A stretch of 64,000 bases of DNA, taken from IMG/VR virus record IMGVR_UViG_3300028833_000069. One strand, given 5' to 3'. Of this stretch, positions 42,272 through 62,439 are shown in pieces. The notes beneath the pieces are model-generated. The model had not been told where the DNA came from. It worked only from the letters and a program-made list of their open reading frames with translations, and searched no databases. The position numbers and the translations under genes are program-made. Every line of letters begins with the position of its first letter. The first letter of the stretch is position 1. Source of the DNA: a virus. Lineage: Duplodnaviria > Heunggongvirae > Uroviricota > Caudoviricetes.

Positions 42272-43446
42272 ATGTAAATACTGCAAGTATGTTGGATAAT
42301 GATCTCTATAAGTTTAGCATGAGCTATGCTTATATGAAATTATTTCCAGAAGCAGAAGGTACATTTGAATTCTGTGATAGAAATAAAACAGTTTATACAA
42401 GTGAGTTTGTTCAAGCTCTTTCCTCAGAGCTGCATAAACTTGCTGAAAGAATGTTACTGTCAACAGAAAGAAGTTGGTGTGTTAAACACATACAGTATAT
42501 TCCTGAGTGGTATTGGGAATGGTTAGAATCTTTCTATTTCAATCCTAATCTTATTAAGGTCTCTCTTACTAAGGAAGGAATGTTGAATATAGCAGTAACT
42601 GATAAACTGTATAAGGTAACTTTGTATGAAGTACCAATTCTATACACAGTAGCAGAACTCTGCTATAAATTTTCTGGTACAGAATTGTCTCATGAGCAAT
42701 TCAAAGAGATAATTAGTAAGACAGAGAGTAAATGTAAGATTGCTGATGAAGCAGAAATGTTTTTCTCTGAATTTGGTACTAGAAGAAGATTCAGTTATGA
42801 AGTACAAGACATTGTAATTAAAACTTGTAAGAGTTGTTCTCACTGTGTTGGTACTTCTAATGTACATTTTGCAATGAAATATGACATGAAGCCTATTGGT
42901 ACTGTTGCACATGAGTGGGTTATGTTCCACGGTGCAATGTATGGCTACAATGAGGCTAATTACATGGCATATAAGAATTGGGTAAAGGTTTATGATGGTA
43001 ATCTTGGTATTGCCTTAACTGATACCTATACCTCTGATGTCTTTTTCAAGAATTTTTCTTTACAACATGCAAAATTGTTTGATGGTATAAGACAAGATTC
43101 TGGTGATGAAAAAGAATTTGTAGAGAAAGCTTTAGTAAAGTATAACGAGTTGGGAATCAATCCACTTACTAAAACTATTGTTTTCTCAAATGCTCTTGAT
43201 TTCCCAAAAGCTGCAACTATAGCAGAATACTGTAAAGGAAAGATAAAAGCTTCCTTTGGTATTGGTACAAATCTGACTAATGATATTGATGGTATAAAAC
43301 CACAAAATATTGTTATGAAACTTATGCAATGCAGAATGAACAACAAACAAAGTTGGATGCATTGTGTAAAAATTTCAGATGATAAAGGTAAGGTAATGGG
43401 AAATCCTGATGAAATTAAAACTGCCTTTTACAAATTAGGTCTATGA
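42265..43446 (+). CDS. pncB: nicotinate phosphoribosyltransferase
   Basis: Collinear with E. coli PncB: LDNDLYKFSM, FGTRRRFSYEVQD, VGTSN, GTVAHEW, LGIALTD, RQDSGDE, VFSNALD, SFGIGT, KPQNIVMKL. Confidence 0.75.
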   Translation: MVNVNTASMLDNDLYKFSMSYAYMKLFPEAEGTFEFCDRNKTVYTSEFVQALSSELHKLAERMLLSTERSWCVKHIQYIPEWYWEWLESFYFNPNLIKVSLTKEGMLNIAVTDKLYKVTLYEVPILYTVAELCYKFSGTELSHEQFKEIISKTESKCKIADEAEMFFSEFGTRRRFSYEVQDIVIKTCKSCSHCVGTSNVHFAMKYDMKPIGTVAHEWVMFHGAMYGYNEANYMAYKNWVKVYDGNLGIALTDTYTSDVFFKNFSLQHAKLFDGIRQDSGDEKEFVEKALVKYNELGINPLTKTIVFSNALDFPKAATIAEYCKGKIKASFGIGTNLTNDIDGIKPQNIVMKLMQCRMNNKQSWMHCVKISDDKGKVMGNPDEIKTAFYKLGL

Positions 43447-43928
43447 AAAATTTTCCAGTAGATTATGAAGGAAAAACCTACTGGATTAGTAGGTCTGTAG
43501 CTGTTGCAGGTTTCATCTTTAGAAAAGATAATAATGGTAATTTACTAGTACTTGCTAACAAAAGAGGACCAGGTTGTCCTGATAATGTTGGCAAGTGGGT
43601 ATGCCCATGTGGTTATCTTGACTATGGAGAAACCCTCAAGCAAGCTATTGTAAGAGAAATCCATGAAGAAACAGGAGTAACTATCCCAATAAGTATATTG
43701 AGACTGGTTAGAATTGATGATGTACCAGAAGGTAGACAAAATGTAACAATTGAGTTTATTGCTGATGCAGGTGTCTTAACTCCTGAATGTGTTGCTTTAT
43801 CTAAAGAATTCTGTGAAAAGGATGAAGTAGATGAAGTTATGTGGATGCCAGTAGCTAACATAGATGAGTATGAATGGGCATTTAATCATGATAAACTTAT
43901 TAAAGATTTTCAATGTTACCTAAAGTAG
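43443..43928 (+). CDS. Nudix hydrolase
   Basis: Nudix box GYLDYGETLKQAIVREIHEETGV. The gene ends on TAG at 43926-43928. Confidence 0.65.
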   Translation: MKNFPVDYEGKTYWISRSVAVAGFIFRKDNNGNLLVLANKRGPGCPDNVGKWVCPCGYLDYGETLKQAIVREIHEETGVTIPISILRLVRIDDVPEGRQNVTIEFIADAGVLTPECVALSKEFCEKDEVDEVMWMPVANIDEYEWAFNHDKLIKDFQCYLK

Positions 43929-44503
43929 CTCACCTATTTTTAACAGCAAAATGTTCAAATAATTGTCCAAAATGCTGTAACAACAATTACACTGTAGATG
44001 AGATTCCTTTCTTAACAGAAGAGGAATTCTCTACAGTGGAAACTGTTTGTTTAACAGGAGGAGAACCATTCCTTCTTGACAACCTAGAAGAAATAGTAAA
44101 TGTTATAAGACCACATGTCAGAAACATTTATGTATACACTTCAGGTACTGAATTATTATCTTATCTAGGAAAGCATGAGCTTCCCTTCATAAACGGCATT
44201 TCCTTTAGTCCTAAGAGCAGAAAAGATTGGGATAGTATAACTACACTAACCAAAAATATTATGCTCTTAAAAAGGATTTCTGAAAAGGATAATAGATTGT
44301 ATATATTCTTAAAACAAGAAGATAGAGCAAACTATACATTGGATCGTTTTGGTCCAAGACTAAGAACAATTGAGTATTTAGCAGATGCACTGAATGCTAA
44401 AATGTATTTTAGGACTTGGCTAGATGAGATAACTTCTCCTGATGGAGAAATCTTTAGAAGAATTAACTTAGAAGACATGAAGAAATGGAAAAAGAAAGAA
44501 TAG
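43913..44503 (+). CDS. small radical SAM protein (activase/QueE-like size)
   Basis: CSNNCPKC cluster and LTGGEPFL. 196 aa. Confidence 0.5.
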   Translation: MLPKVAHLFLTAKCSNNCPKCCNNNYTVDEIPFLTEEEFSTVETVCLTGGEPFLLDNLEEIVNVIRPHVRNIYVYTSGTELLSYLGKHELPFINGISFSPKSRKDWDSITTLTKNIMLLKRISEKDNRLYIFLKQEDRANYTLDRFGPRLRTIEYLADALNAKMYFRTWLDEITSPDGEIFRRINLEDMKKWKKKE

Positions 44504-45108
44504 CAATTTTTGGAGGTTCTTTTAATCCAATTCATAAGGGACATCTTGACATAATTAGCGCTCTTACTAATAGGATGTGCTTTATGGGTTCTTATTATTC
44601 AGAAGTTTGGGTAAGTGTTACACCACAAAACCCATTAAAACCTGAATCAGGTAATTTCTGGGATAGATTTAAGATGGTAAAAGATGCTCTAAATGATAGA
44701 TTCACTGGAAATGCTACATTTAAATATGTTGTTCCTACTTTTATCCAAGGTTGTACAAATCTAATCTTTATGTCTAATACTCTTAGAACTTTGAAAGAAG
44801 TTTATCCAGAGTATGAGTTTGAGCTTGTAATAGGAGCTGATTGTTTAGAGAGTTTTAATAAATGGCATGATTACCAGTATATTATTGATAATTTTGATAT
44901 TGTTATTATTGATCGAGAAGGTTATGTAACAGAAGTACCTAGTTATTTTAATAAAAGTAGAGTAACTCATTTAAAACTTAATAATACAATTAGTTCCACA
45001 CAAGTAAGAAATCTTATTAAAGAGAATAATCCTGAATGGGAAAAATTAGTTGTATCTTCAACAGTAAAAACAATTAAAGATAAAAAGCTATATGAATATA
45101 GTAAATAA
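44485..45108 (+). CDS. nadD: nicotinate-nucleotide adenylyltransferase
   Basis: IAIFGGSFNPIHKGHL is the (H/T)xGH nucleotidyltransferase motif at a NadD-like position. 207 aa. Confidence 0.65.
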   Translation: MEKERIAIFGGSFNPIHKGHLDIISALTNRMCFMGSYYSEVWVSVTPQNPLKPESGNFWDRFKMVKDALNDRFTGNATFKYVVPTFIQGCTNLIFMSNTLRTLKEVYPEYEFELVIGADCLESFNKWHDYQYIIDNFDIVIIDREGYVTEVPSYFNKSRVTHLKLNNTISSTQVRNLIKENNPEWEKLVVSSTVKTIKDKKLYEYSK

Positions 45109-61626: not shown

Positions 61627-61945
61627 ATTTTTGTCTGATGTATCAGATAGATATAAAGCATTTGAGCATCTTAAGAAATCAATTTGTGATAATATGTACC
61701 AAGATATATTTAATTTTATTGTATTAAATGGTATAACAGAAATTTCAATGTGGGCTAGTAAAAGAATACAAATTATTAGTTTATTTATTGAGAGAAATAC
61801 TGTTTATTGTGAATGCTTGGAATTACCATTATTTGGTTTTGCAAAAGCATATACACATAATGTAAGAAGATTAGATAGAATTTTTGGTAATGAATCAGAA
61901 AAGAAGTACCTCGAATTATCACAACTGCTTTTACAACATTTATAA
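61562..61945 (+). CDS. hypothetical protein
   Basis: Track ORF. Confidence 0.35.
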   Translation: MINIHLKENFIMDVKERRKAVEFLSDVSDRYKAFEHLKKSICDNMYQDIFNFIVLNGITEISMWASKRIQIISLFIERNTVYCECLELPLFGFAKAYTHNVRRLDRIFGNESEKKYLELSQLLLQHL

Positions 61946-61947
61946 TT

Positions 61948-62439
61948 ATGAAAGGTGACAATTTAAGTACTGCAAAGAAAATAGGAGAGATCCTAAAAAG
62001 TAAATCCTGGACAATAGCAACAGCAGAATCTTGTACAGCTGGTGGAATATCCAATGCCCTAGCAAGAGTTGAAGGAGCTTCTGCTTATCTCAAAGGTGGA
62101 GTTGTGTCATATACCAATGAGATTAAACAGAAAATCCTATGGATAAATCCACAAGTTATAGAAATGTATGATGTTGTTAGTATGGAAGTAGCCAAAGATA
62201 TGGCTGCAAGTATTAGAAACCTTTATAATACAGATGTAGGTATTGGAATTACAGGTTATGTAGGCCAAACTGGTGGTAATGAGAAGGTTCCTAATGGTAC
62301 AGTTTGGATTAGTGTTAGTTGTAAAGGTGTTACAAACACAGTTAGGTATAATGTTAGTGGTTCCAGAAATGAAAACATAGATGAAATGATAGGAACTGCT
62401 CTAAACCTAATTTTGGAAACACTTGAAATTATTAACTAA
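61948..62439 (+). CDS. pncC: CinA C-terminal domain / NMN deamidase
   Basis: ATAESCTAGGISNALARVEGASAYLKGGVVSYTNEIK...GIGITGYVGQTGG...NGTVWISV fits the CinA_C/PncC signature. Confidence 0.6.
   Translation: MKGDNLSTAKKIGEILKSKSWTIATAESCTAGGISNALARVEGASAYLKGGVVSYTNEIKQKILWINPQVIEMYDVVSMEVAKDMAASIRNLYNTDVGIGITGYVGQTGGNEKVPNGTVWISVSCKGVTNTVRYNVSGSRNENIDEMIGTALNLILETLEIIN

What the first reader, a model, noticed from the sequence alone, without database searches (positions are those of the whole stretch)
43443..62439. Several ADP-ribose and NMN-handling domains in one phage segment (Nudix, Macro, NADAR, PncC)
Macro and NADAR domains remove or reverse ADP-ribosylation. NADAR has been linked to reversal of DarT-type DNA guanine ADP-ribosylation. 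Nudix cleaves ADPR, and PncC deamidates NMN. Their co-occurrence suggests the phage counters both NAD+ depletion and ADP-ribosylation-based immunity.
Basis: partly seen in the sequence, partly recalled or inferred. Interest (0 to 1): 0.55.

Follow-up and report, generated by a model that had tools for sequence, protein, structure and literature searches.

The report
Phage NAD+ rebuilding island, nicotinate route
A gut or rumen phage carries a conserved block of genes that can rebuild the cofactor NAD+ by the nicotinic-acid route, apparently from the fragments left by bacterial NAD-destroying defences, plus an enzyme that strips ADP-ribose off DNA; this is a hybrid of two known phage strategies, not an entirely new one.

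Summary
All four domains exist at the stated coordinates: Nudix, Macro, a T4 gp30.3/AdfN-type NADAR, and PncC. The Nudix and Macro genes lie inside a contiguous, co-directional block (39878-45589): NadE, nicotinamidase PncA, an Adps-clade PRPP-synthetase-like protein, bona fide nicotinate phosphoribosyltransferase PncB, Nudix, a small radical-SAM-like protein, NadD, Macro.

A sister phage keeps the same gene order at 35-81% amino-acid identity.

Comparison with 80 IMG/VR loci shows the block fuses two recurrent gut-phage modules:
- PncA-Adps-Namat-(Macro)-NadE. Its Namat has Ala or Ser where nicotinamide-specific enzymes have Asp, in 77 of 77 cases.
- PncB-NadE-rSAM-NadD-Nudix.

In this lineage Namat has been replaced by PncB, Nudix and NadD.

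Best reading: nicotinamide and probably ADP-ribose, the products of NADase defences, are recycled to NAD+ through NaMN and NaAD. The Macro is most likely an ADPR-1''-phosphate phosphatase (Adpp-like); it has Gln where DarG has its catalytic Lys. The NADAR is an AdfN-type counter to DarT1.

This is a new variant of known kinds (NARP1, NARP1-AP, Preiss-Handler clusters of gut jumbo phages). No enzyme activity has been tested.

The parts
39878..40717 (+). NadE, single-domain (ammonia-type) NAD+ synthetase; converts NaAD to NAD+
   Evidence: Pfam NAD_synthase, E 8.6e-48. NCBIfam TIGR00552 nadE, 151.8 bits against a cut-off of 63.65. SGGKDS PP-loop present. 64% identical in the sister phage.
40714..41259 (+). 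PncA-like nicotinamidase; converts nicotinamide to nicotinate
   Evidence: Pfam Isochorismatase, E 6.5e-16. All PDB matches at E <= 0.001 are nicotinamidases or isochorismatase-family proteins; the best is 1ilw/1im5 (E 2.1e-9), and 3pl1 also matches. D9 and C134 align with the catalytic Asp and Cys. D52, H54 and H72 align with the metal ligands. K102 is the candidate catalytic Lys, though the loop alignment there is ambiguous. A homologue is present in 77 of 80 Adps loci.
41438..42271 (+). Adps-clade PRPP-synthetase-like enzyme. The ORF is open from GTG 41384; homologues and gene callers start at ATG 41438. Predicted reaction: ADPR + ATP -> ADPR-PP + AMP.
   Evidence: phrog_619, E 6.2e-57. Below the cut-off for true Prs (TIGR01251, 72 bits against 113). 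32.5% identity and 108 bits to the biochemically validated SPbetaL1 Adps, against 23.5% and 37 bits to E. coli Prs. Shares the clade's indels and motifs: FTLKY, DDIxSxGGT, the SHCEN insert, and short termini. The catalytic Lys is conserved (K193 = SPbetaL1 K162; 30 of 30 sequences). Nests inside the Adps clade in an NJ tree. Its closest relatives lie next to Namat.
42265..43446 (+). PncB, nicotinate phosphoribosyltransferase; nicotinate + PRPP -> NaMN
   Evidence: NCBIfam TIGR01514 equivalog, 410.9 bits against a cut-off of 269.55. Pfam NAPRTase plus NAPRTase_N. PDB 2im5, E 8.2e-116, in a nearly gap-free alignment. 81% identical in the sister phage.
43443..43928 (+). Nudix hydrolase; the substrate is inferred to be ADPR and/or ADPR-PP
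   Evidence: Pfam NUDIX, E 4.8e-16. Intact Nudix box. Weak matches to the Nudix domain of bifunctional NadM-Nudix enzymes: NCBIfam PRK05379 models at about 1e-6 and PDB 2qjt at 9.5e-5. In five other phage loci (L120, L121, L123, L125, L126) its homologue lies immediately downstream of NadD.
43913..44503 (+). Small radical-SAM-like protein of unknown role. It is a conserved member of the block.
   Evidence: A CX3CX2C motif (C14, C18, C21) and a GGE motif are visible in the translation. Pfam Radical_SAM match is weak, E 0.0026. phrog_31524, E 7e-11. 68% identical in the sister phage. Homologues (27-35% identity) lie between NadE and NadD in four PncB-type modules, L120, L121, L123 and L125.
44485..45108 (+). 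NadD, nicotinate-mononucleotide adenylyltransferase; NaMN + ATP -> NaAD
   Evidence: Pfam CTP_transf_like, E 6.6e-16. TIGR00482, 105.3 bits, just under its cut-off of 112.45. Nearly all PDB matches are NaMN adenylyltransferases; the best are 1kam (E 1.3e-13) and 1k4k. GxFxPxHxGH and ISSTxxR motifs are present.
45092..45589 (+). Macro-domain protein of the DarG/TARG1/Poa1p structural class. Predicted to be an Adpp-like ADPR-1''-phosphate phosphatase.
   Evidence: Pfam Macro, E 8.4e-7. phrog_335 'phosphatase', E 3.2e-26. AlphaFold2 pLDDT 89; Foldseek top hits are 5m3e, 5m3i, TARG1 and Poa1p. Q84 is invariant at the position of DarG K80; N23 is conserved. Relatives are embedded in Namat-Macro-NadE operons.
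51453..51899 (+). AdfN-like NADAR (T4 gp30.3 family). Predicted DNA ADP-ribosylglycohydrolase that counters DarT1.
   Evidence: Pfam Phage_30_3, E 3.5e-57, full length. 44% identical to T4 gp30.3, with catalytic E33 and K40 conserved and the C-terminus intact. Up to 68% identical to proteins of T4-like Klebsiella and Enterobacter phages. Function of the family comes from PMC11257639.
61948..62439 (+). PncC (stand-alone CinA C-terminal domain), NMN deamidase; NMN -> NaMN
   Evidence: Pfam CinA, E 1.6e-47. TIGR00199 PncC_domain, 127.4 bits against a cut-off of 68.9. 83% identical and syntenic in the sister phage.
39009..39893 (+). Radical SAM protein (294 aa) that overlaps the start of nadE. Possibly a member of the block; role unknown.
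   Evidence: Pfam Radical_SAM, E 8.1e-10. No specific NCBIfam family. 81% identical in the sister phage. Homologues (53-55% identity) lie downstream of three PncB-NadE-NadD-Nudix modules, L123, L125 and L126.

Best explanation
The window carries a phage NAD+ reconstitution island that runs on the deamidated (nicotinate) branch.

Shown by sequence:
- One co-directional block encodes NadE, PncA, an Adps-clade enzyme, PncB, Nudix, NadD and a Macro protein.
- PncC lies 16 kb downstream.
- An AdfN-type NADAR lies 6 kb downstream.

Inferred mechanism. When a bacterial NADase defence splits NAD+ into nicotinamide and ADP-ribose (or ADPR-1''-phosphate), the steps would be:
1. The Macro protein removes the 1''-phosphate, giving ADPR.
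2. ADPR is turned into PRPP. Either Adps makes ADPR-PP and the Nudix cuts it to PRPP + AMP, or the Nudix cuts ADPR to ribose-5-phosphate first.
3. PncA deamidates nicotinamide to nicotinate.
4. PncB joins nicotinate and PRPP to give NaMN. PncC adds NaMN made from NMN.
5. NadD makes NaAD.
6. NadE amidates NaAD to NAD+.

Evolution. The block is a fusion of two recurrent gut-phage modules. One is an extended NARP1 (PncA-Adps-Namat-Macro-NadE). The other is a Preiss-Handler module (PncB-NadE-rSAM-NadD-Nudix). In the fusion, PncB, Nudix and NadD took the place of Namat.

Separately, the AdfN-like NADAR removes DarT1-type ADP-ribose from phage DNA.
For: Family assignments.

Adps-clade membership:
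- Higher identity to validated SPbetaL1 Adps than to E. coli Prs.
- Shared motifs and indels.
- Conserved catalytic Lys.
- Tree position inside the Adps clade.

Block conserved in a sister phage:
- Same gene order at 35-81% amino-acid identity.
- Adps-like (78%) and PncB (81%) are the best conserved genes.
- PncC is syntenic.

Module A, in the 80 IMG/VR loci closest to the Adps-like protein:
- PncA in 77, Namat in 74, NadE in 71, Macro in 35.
- Operon order PncA-Adps-Namat-(Macro)-NadE in 66 of 80.
- Only the two sister loci carry PncB, Nudix and NadD instead.

The module runs on nicotinate:
- Namat-like proteins of these operons have Ala (63) or Ser (14) at the position of human NAMPT Asp219.
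- Four isolate-phage Namats without PncA or NadE nearby, including validated SPbetaL1, have Asp there.
- Asp219 contacts the amide of nicotinamide; human NaPRT has Ser at the equivalent position (PMC4442680, PMC7096376).

Module B: the closest Nudix homologues lie in PncB-NadE-rSAM-NadD-Nudix clusters.

A Nudix enzyme (NudC) converts ADPR-PP to PRPP in vitro (bioRxiv 10.1101/2024.02.11.579819).

Macro: plus the Adpp precedent.

AdfN.
Against: - No activity was tested. Every substrate is inferred from homology or gene context.
- The Nudix has no diagnostic subfamily match. Its best PDB hits are generic MutT-like proteins. It travels with NadD even in phages without Adps, so it did not evolve specifically for ADPR-PP.
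- In the published survey, 97% of Adps-clade genes have a Namat next to them. An Adps without Namat has no demonstrated consumer for ADPR-PP.
- Only 64 kb of a genome of about 168 kb was visible, so a Namat could lie elsewhere.
- The Macro is closer to DarG macrodomains than to Poa1p in both sequence and fold. I could not compare it with the validated Adpp of Vibrio phage Gary.
- A counter-defence role, as opposed to a general boost of NAD+ supply, is not distinguishable from sequence.
Confidence: 0.6

Rival explanations
1. One reading: it is a DarG2/AdfM-type glycohydrolase that removes ADP-ribose from DNA or protein. Macro and NADAR together would then cover DarT2- and DarT1-type immunity.
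For: - The best sequence and fold matches are DarG macrodomains: PDB 5m31 at E 1.9e-9 and NCBIfam DarG at E 9.3e-18, and Foldseek TM 0.79-0.87.
- The Asn equivalent to DarG N22 is conserved.
- Phage DarG2-like macros (AdfM) exist (PMC13309987).
- In Bacillus phage FADO a macro and a COG3236/NADAR gene lie two genes apart.
Against: - The catalytic Lys of DarG and TARG1 (Thermus DarG K80) is replaced by a Gln that is invariant in 35 of 35 family members.
- The closest relatives are embedded in Namat-Macro-NadE operons, not next to DNA-related genes.
- The gene sits in the NAD block, overlapping nadD.
Confidence: 0.2
2. The block is an ordinary auxiliary metabolic cluster. It raises NAD+ supply for phage replication by complementing the host's Preiss-Handler salvage, and is not a counter-defence.
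For: - Gut jumbo phages with pncB-nadD-nadE clusters have been described and interpreted partly in this way (PMC11662467).
- PncB closely resembles a bacterial housekeeping enzyme (2im5, E 8e-116).
- Module B occurs without any ADPR-handling Adps or Macro.
Against: - This lineage has kept an Adps-clade enzyme and a NARP1-type Macro. Both act on ADPR-type products of NAD+ cleavage in the systems tested so far.
- Adps is among the best conserved genes of the block.
- An AdfN-type anti-DarT gene and an RtcB RNA-repair ligase lie in the same early region.
- Every characterised phage NAD pathway (NARP1, NARP2, NARP3) was shown to counter NADase defences.
Confidence: 0.25
3. The Prs-like protein is a real PRPP synthetase, or has reverted to one. 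It simply supplies PRPP to PncB, while the Nudix makes ribose-5-phosphate from ADPR.
For: - It sits next to a PRPP-using PncB and no Namat is in sight.
- The PRPS catalytic core residues are present.
- Its PP loop, DDILSSGGT, keeps the GGT of canonical DDxxDTGGT. The structurally studied Adps has a DDICDxAAS loop there instead.
- Net chemistry would be the same as in the best explanation.
Against: - It keeps every clade-specific feature of Adps, and validated SPbetaL1 Adps has the same DDxxSxGGT loop.
- SPbetaL1 Adps showed no Prs activity.
- It scores far below the NCBIfam Prs cut-off (72 against 113 bits).
- It nests within Namat-linked Adps sequences.
Confidence: 0.25
4. PncB itself accepts ADPR-PP and nicotinate and makes NaAD directly. 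This would be a nicotinate version of the Namat reaction, with NadD serving only the PncC branch.
For: - PncB occupies exactly the position of Namat, immediately downstream of Adps and overlapping it.
- The relatives' Namat-like enzymes appear to be nicotinate-specific.
- Adps and PncB are the two most conserved genes of the block.
Against: - PncB aligns almost without gaps to a housekeeping bacterial PncB.
- It shows no added element comparable to the adenine 'selectivity clamp' that Namat needs for ADPR-PP (PMC12774641).
- NadD and Nudix were brought in together with PncB, as expected if NaMN is the product.
Confidence: 0.1

Closest known systems
NARP1 (Adps + Namat; Osterman et al., bioRxiv 10.1101/2024.02.11.579819)
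   Same: It contains an Adps-clade PRPS-like enzyme with the clade's motifs and catalytic Lys. Its closest relatives are Namat-linked. The presumed purpose is to rebuild NAD+ from the products of NADase defences.
   Different: There is no Namat in the window; a true PncB sits in its place. NadD, NadE, PncA and a Nudix are added, so the route must pass through NaMN and NaAD instead of forming NAD+ in one step.
NARP1-AP (NARP1 plus the Macro-domain phosphatase Adpp; bioRxiv 10.64898/2026.01.28.702374)
   Same: A Macro protein of the Poa1p/TARG1/DarG structural class is encoded in the same operon as Adps. The relatives' Macro genes lie between Namat and NadE.
   Different: Not compared directly with the validated Adpp of Vibrio phage Gary. 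By sequence it is nearer to DarG macrodomains than to Poa1p. Phosphatase activity is untested.
Preiss-Handler gene clusters of gut 'NAD-jumbo phages' (pncB-nadD-nadE, e.g. Kuafu_71; PMC11662467)
   Same: Phage-encoded PncB, NadD and NadE are clustered. The source is gut or rumen metagenomes. PncB is closest to a Porphyromonas gingivalis structure.
   Different: This phage is about 168 kb, not over 200 kb. The cluster also carries an Adps-clade enzyme, PncA, a Macro, a Nudix and PncC. That links it to recycling of ADP-ribose, which the paper does not discuss.
NARP2 (KVP40 NadV Nampt + NatV NadM-Nudix)
   Same: A phosphoribosyltransferase, an adenylyltransferase and a Nudix domain work from PRPP.
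   Different: The window uses nicotinate-specific PncB and NaMN-type NadD instead of Nampt and NadM. The Nudix is a separate protein. NadE is needed for the last step.
AdfN (T4 gp30.3, NADAR anti-DarTG1 factor; PMC11257639)
   Same: Full-length Phage_30_3 match, 44% identity to T4 gp30.3, both catalytic residues conserved, C-terminal helix present.
   Different: It is found in an unrelated low-GC gut phage, not a T4-like coliphage. Activity and the relevant host DarT are unknown.
AdfM / DarG2 macrodomain (PMC13309987)
   Same: Same macrodomain structural class; the Asn equivalent to DarG N22 is conserved.
   Different: The catalytic Lys (DarG K80) is replaced by an invariant Gln. The gene context is NAD synthesis, not DNA metabolism.

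Membership tests
NARP1 | Adps: a PRPS-like protein of the phage Adps clade | tested here: met
   32.5% identity and 108 bits to validated SPbetaL1 Adps, against 37 bits to E. coli Prs. Shared indels and motifs. Catalytic Lys conserved. Nested in the clade in an NJ tree.
NARP1 | Namat (a Nampt-like ADPR-transferase) encoded next to Adps | tested here: not met
   tblastn of SPbetaL1 Namat against the whole window gave no hit at E <= 10. The gene downstream of Adps is PncB (TIGR01514, 411 bits). The rest of the genome was not visible.
NARP1 | ADPR + ATP -> ADPR-PP activity | not testable with these tools
   Needs an enzyme assay with LC-MS.
Preiss-Handler / pyridine nucleotide cycle (PncA, PncB, NadD, NadE, PncC) | PncB equivalog | tested here: met
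   TIGR01514, 410.9 bits against a cut-off of 269.55. PDB 2im5, E 8.2e-116.
Preiss-Handler / pyridine nucleotide cycle (PncA, PncB, NadD, NadE, PncC) | NadD-type NaMN adenylyltransferase | tested here: met
   Nearly all PDB matches are NaMN adenylyltransferases. TIGR00482 scores 105.3 bits, slightly below its cut-off of 112.45. HxGH and SSTxxR motifs are present.
Preiss-Handler / pyridine nucleotide cycle (PncA, PncB, NadD, NadE, PncC) | NadE NAD+ synthetase with a PP-loop | tested here: met
   TIGR00552, 151.8 bits against a cut-off of 63.65. SGGKDS motif.
Preiss-Handler / pyridine nucleotide cycle (PncA, PncB, NadD, NadE, PncC) | Nicotinamidase: Asp/Lys/Cys catalytic triad plus Asp/His/His metal site | tested here: met
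   The best PDB hits are nicotinamidases. D9, C134, D52, H54 and H72 align to the catalytic and metal-binding residues. K102 is the probable catalytic Lys, but the loop alignment is ambiguous. The NCBIfam nicotinamidase model matches only weakly, at 30.7 bits.
Preiss-Handler / pyridine nucleotide cycle (PncA, PncB, NadD, NadE, PncC) | PncC NMN deamidase domain | tested here: met
   TIGR00199, 127.4 bits against a cut-off of 68.9. Pfam CinA, E 1.6e-47.
Adpp (NARP1-associated Macro phosphatase) | Macro fold of the Poa1p-like class, encoded within the NAD reconstitution operon | tested here: met
   AlphaFold2 pLDDT 89; Poa1p at TMq 0.74, though DarG and TARG1 rank higher. The gene overlaps nadD. 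Homologues lie between Namat and NadE.
Adpp (NARP1-associated Macro phosphatase) | Homology to the validated Adpp (Vibrio phage Gary) and ADPR-1''-phosphate phosphatase activity | not tested
   The Gary sequence could not be retrieved with the tools. The activity needs an assay.
AdfM / DarG2 macrodomain | Catalytic Lys (Thermus DarG K80) and Asn (N22) | tested here: not met
   The Asn is conserved (N23). The Lys position holds Gln84, invariant in 35 of 35 homologues.
AdfN / NADAR (T4 gp30.3) | Full-length gp30.3-family domain with catalytic Glu and Lys and the C-terminal helix | tested here: met
   Pfam Phage_30_3, E 3.5e-57, covering profile positions 1-138 of 138. E33 and K40 correspond to T4 E36 and K43, and the alignment runs to the C-terminus. 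The importance of these residues and of the C-terminal helix comes from PMC11257639.
AdfN / NADAR (T4 gp30.3) | Removal of DarT1-type ADP-ribose from DNA | not testable with these tools
   Needs a biochemical or plaque assay.
NARP2 (Nampt + NadM-Nudix) | Nampt-type nicotinamide phosphoribosyltransferase | tested here: not met
   No Nampt- or Namat-like sequence in the window. The only type II PRTase is PncB.

The most novel reading that the evidence does not exclude
The window is a derived member of an undescribed 'deamidated NARP' family of gut phages.

In the common form (PncA-Adps-Namat-Macro-NadE), the Namat-like enzyme has lost the nicotinamide-specifying Asp (Asp to Ala or Ser). It would join ADPR-PP to nicotinate to give NaAD, which NadE then finishes to NAD+.

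In the window's rarer form, Adps is kept but Namat is replaced. ADPR-PP would be trimmed by the Nudix to PRPP, a new ADPR-to-PRPP shunt. That PRPP would feed a phage-encoded PncB-NadD-NadE line.

Both products of NADase defences would thus be recycled wholly through the nicotinate branch.
Probability: 0.35. Interest if true: 0.75.

Novelty: new variant of a known kind. Interest (0 to 1): 0.6.

Why it matters
NAD+ depletion is one of the commonest bacterial anti-phage strategies. The three characterised phage counter-pathways (NARP1, NARP2, NARP3) all work on the amidated side, using nicotinamide, NMN or nicotinamide riboside.

This locus and its relatives suggest that many uncultivated gut and rumen phages rebuild NAD+ through nicotinate, NaMN and NaAD instead. 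That would fit hosts that rapidly deamidate nicotinamide and salvage through PncA/PncB.

Three enzyme questions become directly testable:
- Does an Adps without Namat feed PRPP synthesis?
- Do the Namat variants with Ala or Ser in place of Asp219 make NaAD?
- Is the operon's Macro an ADPR-1''-phosphate phosphatase?

The locus also gives a simple sequence marker, Asp versus Ala/Ser in the LSFxxTxT motif, for sorting phage Namat-like genes.

Tried and rejected
- Megablast of 41000-63000 against 50,697 phage records: no match. Annotation by close relatives was therefore impossible.
- Pfam on 20 further ORFs of the window (10 between 46.5 and 63 kb, 10 between 18 and 31 kb): no hit above any gathering cut-off, the only match being a sub-threshold DUF308 (E 0.0088), so no extra NAD or ADPR domains were found.
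- NCBIfam on the flanking unknown ORFs: only non-specific radical-SAM hits.
- PDB sequence search with the gp30.3-like protein: nothing useful. The NADAR link rests on Pfam Phage_30_3 plus the literature.
- Promoter and terminator consensus scans of 35000-47500: promoter counts no different from shuffled sequence, and terminator-like sites (7 found against 4.0 +/- 2.0 in shuffles) added nothing to the operon picture.
- I tried to map the residues of the structurally studied Adps (UniProt F1D1Q1). I guessed that it comes from Vibrio phage ICP1. The first 50 kb of ICP1 held no Prs-like gene, and I dropped this line.
- I could not retrieve the validated Adpp of Vibrio phage Gary, because the tools have no search by name.
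- I considered that TAG readthrough might alter the Nudix or radical-SAM ORFs, which both end in TAG. Readthrough would add only 4 and 16 residues.
- I considered NARP3 (PnuC + NadR). Neither was seen among the ORFs scanned, but not every small ORF was scanned.
- The FADO phage Macro is not next to its NARP1 operon, so it gave no help on Adpp.

Full report
**The sequence.** The window is low-GC DNA, about 27-40% GC, and it is phage.
- It has a terminase large subunit, a tape-measure-like protein and a GroEL-like chaperonin.
- It has 24 tRNA genes.
- It has close relatives among IMG/VR viral contigs.
- Megablast against 50,697 deposited phage genomes found nothing, so it is an uncultivated lineage.
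- The exact PncB protein occurs on nine metagenomic contigs, the longest 168 kb (ENA ERZ27257202).

**Observation check.**
- The Nudix (43443-43928) matches Pfam NUDIX at E 4.8e-16 and has an intact Nudix box.
- The Macro (45092-45589) passes the Pfam gathering score (29.4 bits against 22). It hits phrog_335 at E 3.2e-26.
- The 'NADAR' (51453-51899) does not hit the Pfam NADAR model. It is a full-length Phage_30_3 match, E 3.5e-57. T4 gp30.3 has been renamed AdfN and shown to be a NADAR DNA ADP-ribosylglycohydrolase that defeats DarTG1, with catalytic E36 and K43 (PMC11257639). The window protein is 44% identical to T4 gp30.3, and both residues are conserved as E33 and K40.
- PncC (61948-62439) passes the NCBIfam PncC_domain cut-off, 127 bits against 68.9.

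The Nudix and Macro genes are the third-from-last and last enzymes of a tight block of overlapping, co-directional genes. The only gap is 125-180 bp, before the Adps-like gene. In order:
- NadE, 39878-40717: TIGR00552 at 152 bits against 64, with an SGGKDS PP-loop.
- A PncA-like nicotinamidase, 40714-41259: the best PDB hits are nicotinamidases, and the catalytic Asp and Cys and the Asp/His/His metal site align.
- A PRPP-synthetase-like protein, 41438-42271.
- PncB, 42265-43446: TIGR01514 at 411 bits against 270; PDB 2im5 (Porphyromonas gingivalis) at E 8e-116.
- The Nudix.
- A 196-aa radical-SAM-like protein.
- NadD, 44485-45108: nearly all PDB hits are NaMN adenylyltransferases.
- The Macro.

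With PncC downstream, this is a complete Preiss-Handler and pyridine-nucleotide-cycle set. The sister phage IMGVR_UViG_3300028591_000093 has the same order at 35-81% amino-acid identity. It also has PncC at the syntenic distance.

**The Prs-like protein belongs to the Adps clade.**
- It scores below the NCBIfam cut-off for ribose-phosphate diphosphokinase (72 bits against 113), but hits phrog_619 at E 6e-57.
- It is 32.5% identical (108 bits) to SPbetaL1 Adps, the enzyme shown to pyrophosphorylate ADP-ribose and not ribose-5-phosphate. Against E. coli Prs it reaches 23.5% and 37 bits.
- It shares the clade-specific features seen in the alignment: a missing N-terminal segment, FTLKY, DDIxSxGGT, the SHCEN insertion and a short C-terminus.
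- It keeps the catalytic Lys that Osterman et al. mutated (SPbetaL1 K162 = K193 here; 30 of 30 sequences).
- A rough NJ tree, without bootstrap, places it inside the clade. It is bracketed by Namat-linked homologues and SPbetaL1 Adps, with E. coli Prs far outside.

**Comparative context.** I collected the 80 IMG/VR loci closest to this protein, with 8 kb on each side, and searched them with the window's proteins.
- PncA-like genes occur in 77, Namat in 74, NadE in 71 and the Macro in 35.
- 66 of 80 have the co-directional order PncA-Adps-Namat-(Macro)-NadE. The median span across the 80 loci is 4.3 kb.
- Only the two sister loci have PncB, Nudix, the small radical-SAM protein and NadD instead of Namat.
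- Three individually inspected contigs, and the human-faecal record MT835544.1, show the same operon.

A nicotinamidase and an NaAD amidase in one operon with a nicotinamide-using Namat would make little sense, so I looked at the Namat active site.
- All 77 Namat-like proteins of these operons carry Ala (63) or Ser (14) in the motif LSFxxT[A/S]T[V/I]P.
- Validated SPbetaL1 Namat, and three Bacillus-phage Namats of plain two-gene NARP1 operons with no PncA or NadE nearby, carry GTD[T/S].
- This Asp is human NAMPT Asp219. It contacts the amide of nicotinamide and defines specificity. Human NaPRT has Ser at the equivalent position (PMC4442680, PMC7096376).

The inference is that these operons run on nicotinate and make NaAD, which NadE completes. 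I found no description of this in the searchable literature. That is a limited search, not proof of novelty.

**Second module.** The closest homologues of the window's Nudix outside the sister phage (52-58% identity) lie in clusters of the form PncB-NadE-(small radical-SAM)-NadD-Nudix, where the small radical-SAM gene was detected in four of the five loci. Three of the five have a homologue of the 294-aa radical SAM protein downstream. The human-faecal record MT835470.1 is similar. This corresponds to the pncB-nadD-nadE clusters reported for gut 'NAD-jumbo phages' (PMC11662467).

The window's block is therefore a fusion of the two modules: rSAM294-NadE-PncA-Adps | PncB-Nudix-rSAM196-NadD | Macro. 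Adps (78%) and PncB (81%) are the best conserved proteins of the block between the window and its sister phage. That argues that Adps is still in use.

**The Macro protein.**
- Sequence and fold place it in the DarG/TARG1/Poa1p class.
- It has Gln84 where Thermus DarG has the catalytic K80. This Gln is invariant in all 35 homologues found. The Asn equivalent to DarG N22 is kept.
- Its nearest homologue outside the sister lineage (45% identity) sits between Namat and NadE, with PncA nearby. Macros in L010 and L014 share its motifs.
- This is the layout of NARP1-AP, where a Poa1p-like Macro (Adpp) converts ADPR-1''-phosphate, the product of RES-type NADases, to ADPR.

I therefore favour an Adpp-like role over an AdfM/DarG2-like role. 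I could not compare it with the validated Adpp.

**Mechanism.** The gene content, the family assignments, the conservation and the evolutionary relationships are shown. The following steps are inferred:
1. The Macro converts ADPR-1''-phosphate to ADPR.
2. Adps converts ADPR to ADPR-PP.
3. The Nudix converts ADPR-PP to PRPP + AMP. NudC does this in vitro. Alternatively the Nudix converts ADPR to ribose-5-phosphate.
4. PncA converts nicotinamide to nicotinate.
5. PncB makes NaMN, and PncC adds NaMN made from NMN.
6. NadD makes NaAD.
7. NadE makes NAD+.

The weakest step is the fate of ADPR-PP. The Nudix has no diagnostic subfamily match, and it accompanies NadD even in phages without Adps.

The rivals are:
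- Adps acts as a plain Prs.
- PncB uses ADPR-PP directly.
- The block is a general metabolic booster and not a counter-defence.
- The Macro is a DNA or protein de-ADP-ribosylase.

A Namat elsewhere in the unseen roughly 100 kb of the genome cannot be excluded.

**The AdfN-like gene.** It stands apart from the block. It lies 6 kb downstream among small unknown ORFs. It was not detected in the sister phage. It is up to 68% identical to proteins of T4-like Klebsiella and Enterobacter phages. It is best read as an independently acquired anti-DarT1 factor.

**Verdict.** The locus is a new variant of known kinds: NARP1, NARP1-AP and Preiss-Handler clusters. Its relatives point to a widespread nicotinate-based version of NARP1 that can be tested directly.

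Noticed in passing
window 1085-3388 (-), tRNAs at 14882-14972 (-) and 48653-48729 (+): The terminase large subunit is one 768-codon frame interrupted by three in-frame TAG codons (at 3250, 2851 and 1993). The window also encodes a tRNA with anticodon CUA and another with anticodon UUA. This points to amber (TAG) recoding in late genes. The NAD block reads normally under the standard code, and TAG readthrough there would add only 4 or 16 residues.
   Followed up: partly
L032-L111 (IMG/VR loci), L009, L010, L014, L113: A conserved operon PncA-Adps-Namat-(Macro)-NadE occurs in 66 of the 80 IMG/VR loci; its components also occur in L009, L010, L014 and L113, with variations in order. The Namat-like enzyme has Ala or Ser where human NAMPT has Asp219, in 77 of 77 cases. 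Four isolate-phage Namats without PncA or NadE nearby keep Asp. This suggests a nicotinate-using, NaAD-forming version of NARP1.
   Followed up: yes
window 39009-39893 and 43913-44503; L120, L121, L123, L125, L126: Two radical-SAM-like proteins (294 and 196 aa) are conserved members of the NAD gene block. Homologues recur in other phages' PncB-NadE-NadD-Nudix modules. No role for radical SAM chemistry in NAD salvage is known to me, and their function is unexplained.
   Followed up: partly
window 44485-45108 versus L002 13117-13728: NadD is only 35% identical between the window and its sister phage, while the neighbouring genes are 68-81% identical. This suggests that the nadD allele was replaced within an otherwise conserved block.
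   Followed up: no
window 35936-37650; L013, L115, L117: An RtcB RNA ligase and a YqeY/GatB-like protein lie just upstream of the NAD block. YqeY-like genes also sit near NAD modules in unrelated phages: MT835470.1, Bacillus phage KoopaTroopa and vB_BcoS-136.
   Followed up: no
window 9312-10525 (-) and scattered: There are 24 tRNA genes, including a near-contiguous array of 11 on the minus strand. tRNAs are also interspersed among the small early ORFs of the finding region: Trp at 46422, Gln at 47264, Leu at 55364, His at 60534 and Pro at 60619.
   Followed up: no
window 51453-51899: The AdfN-like protein of this low-GC gut phage is up to 68% identical to proteins of T4-like Klebsiella and Enterobacter phages, and 90% identical to one on a 380-kb IMG/VR contig. 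It was not found in the sister phage. This points to horizontal spread of the gene.
   Followed up: partly
window 4971-6431 (-), 31074-32936 (+), 56000-56668 (+): Three other notable genes: a GroEL-like chaperonin (phrog_5725, E 2e-100), a 620-aa SPFH/Band-7 protein, and an NT5C-family 5'-nucleotidase.
   Followed up: no
L017 (Bacillus phage FADO) 4177-5453: In FADO, a COG3236 (NADAR-type) gene lies two genes from its Macro gene, away from the phage's NARP1 operon. Pairing of Macro and NADAR genes recurs in unrelated phages.
   Followed up: no
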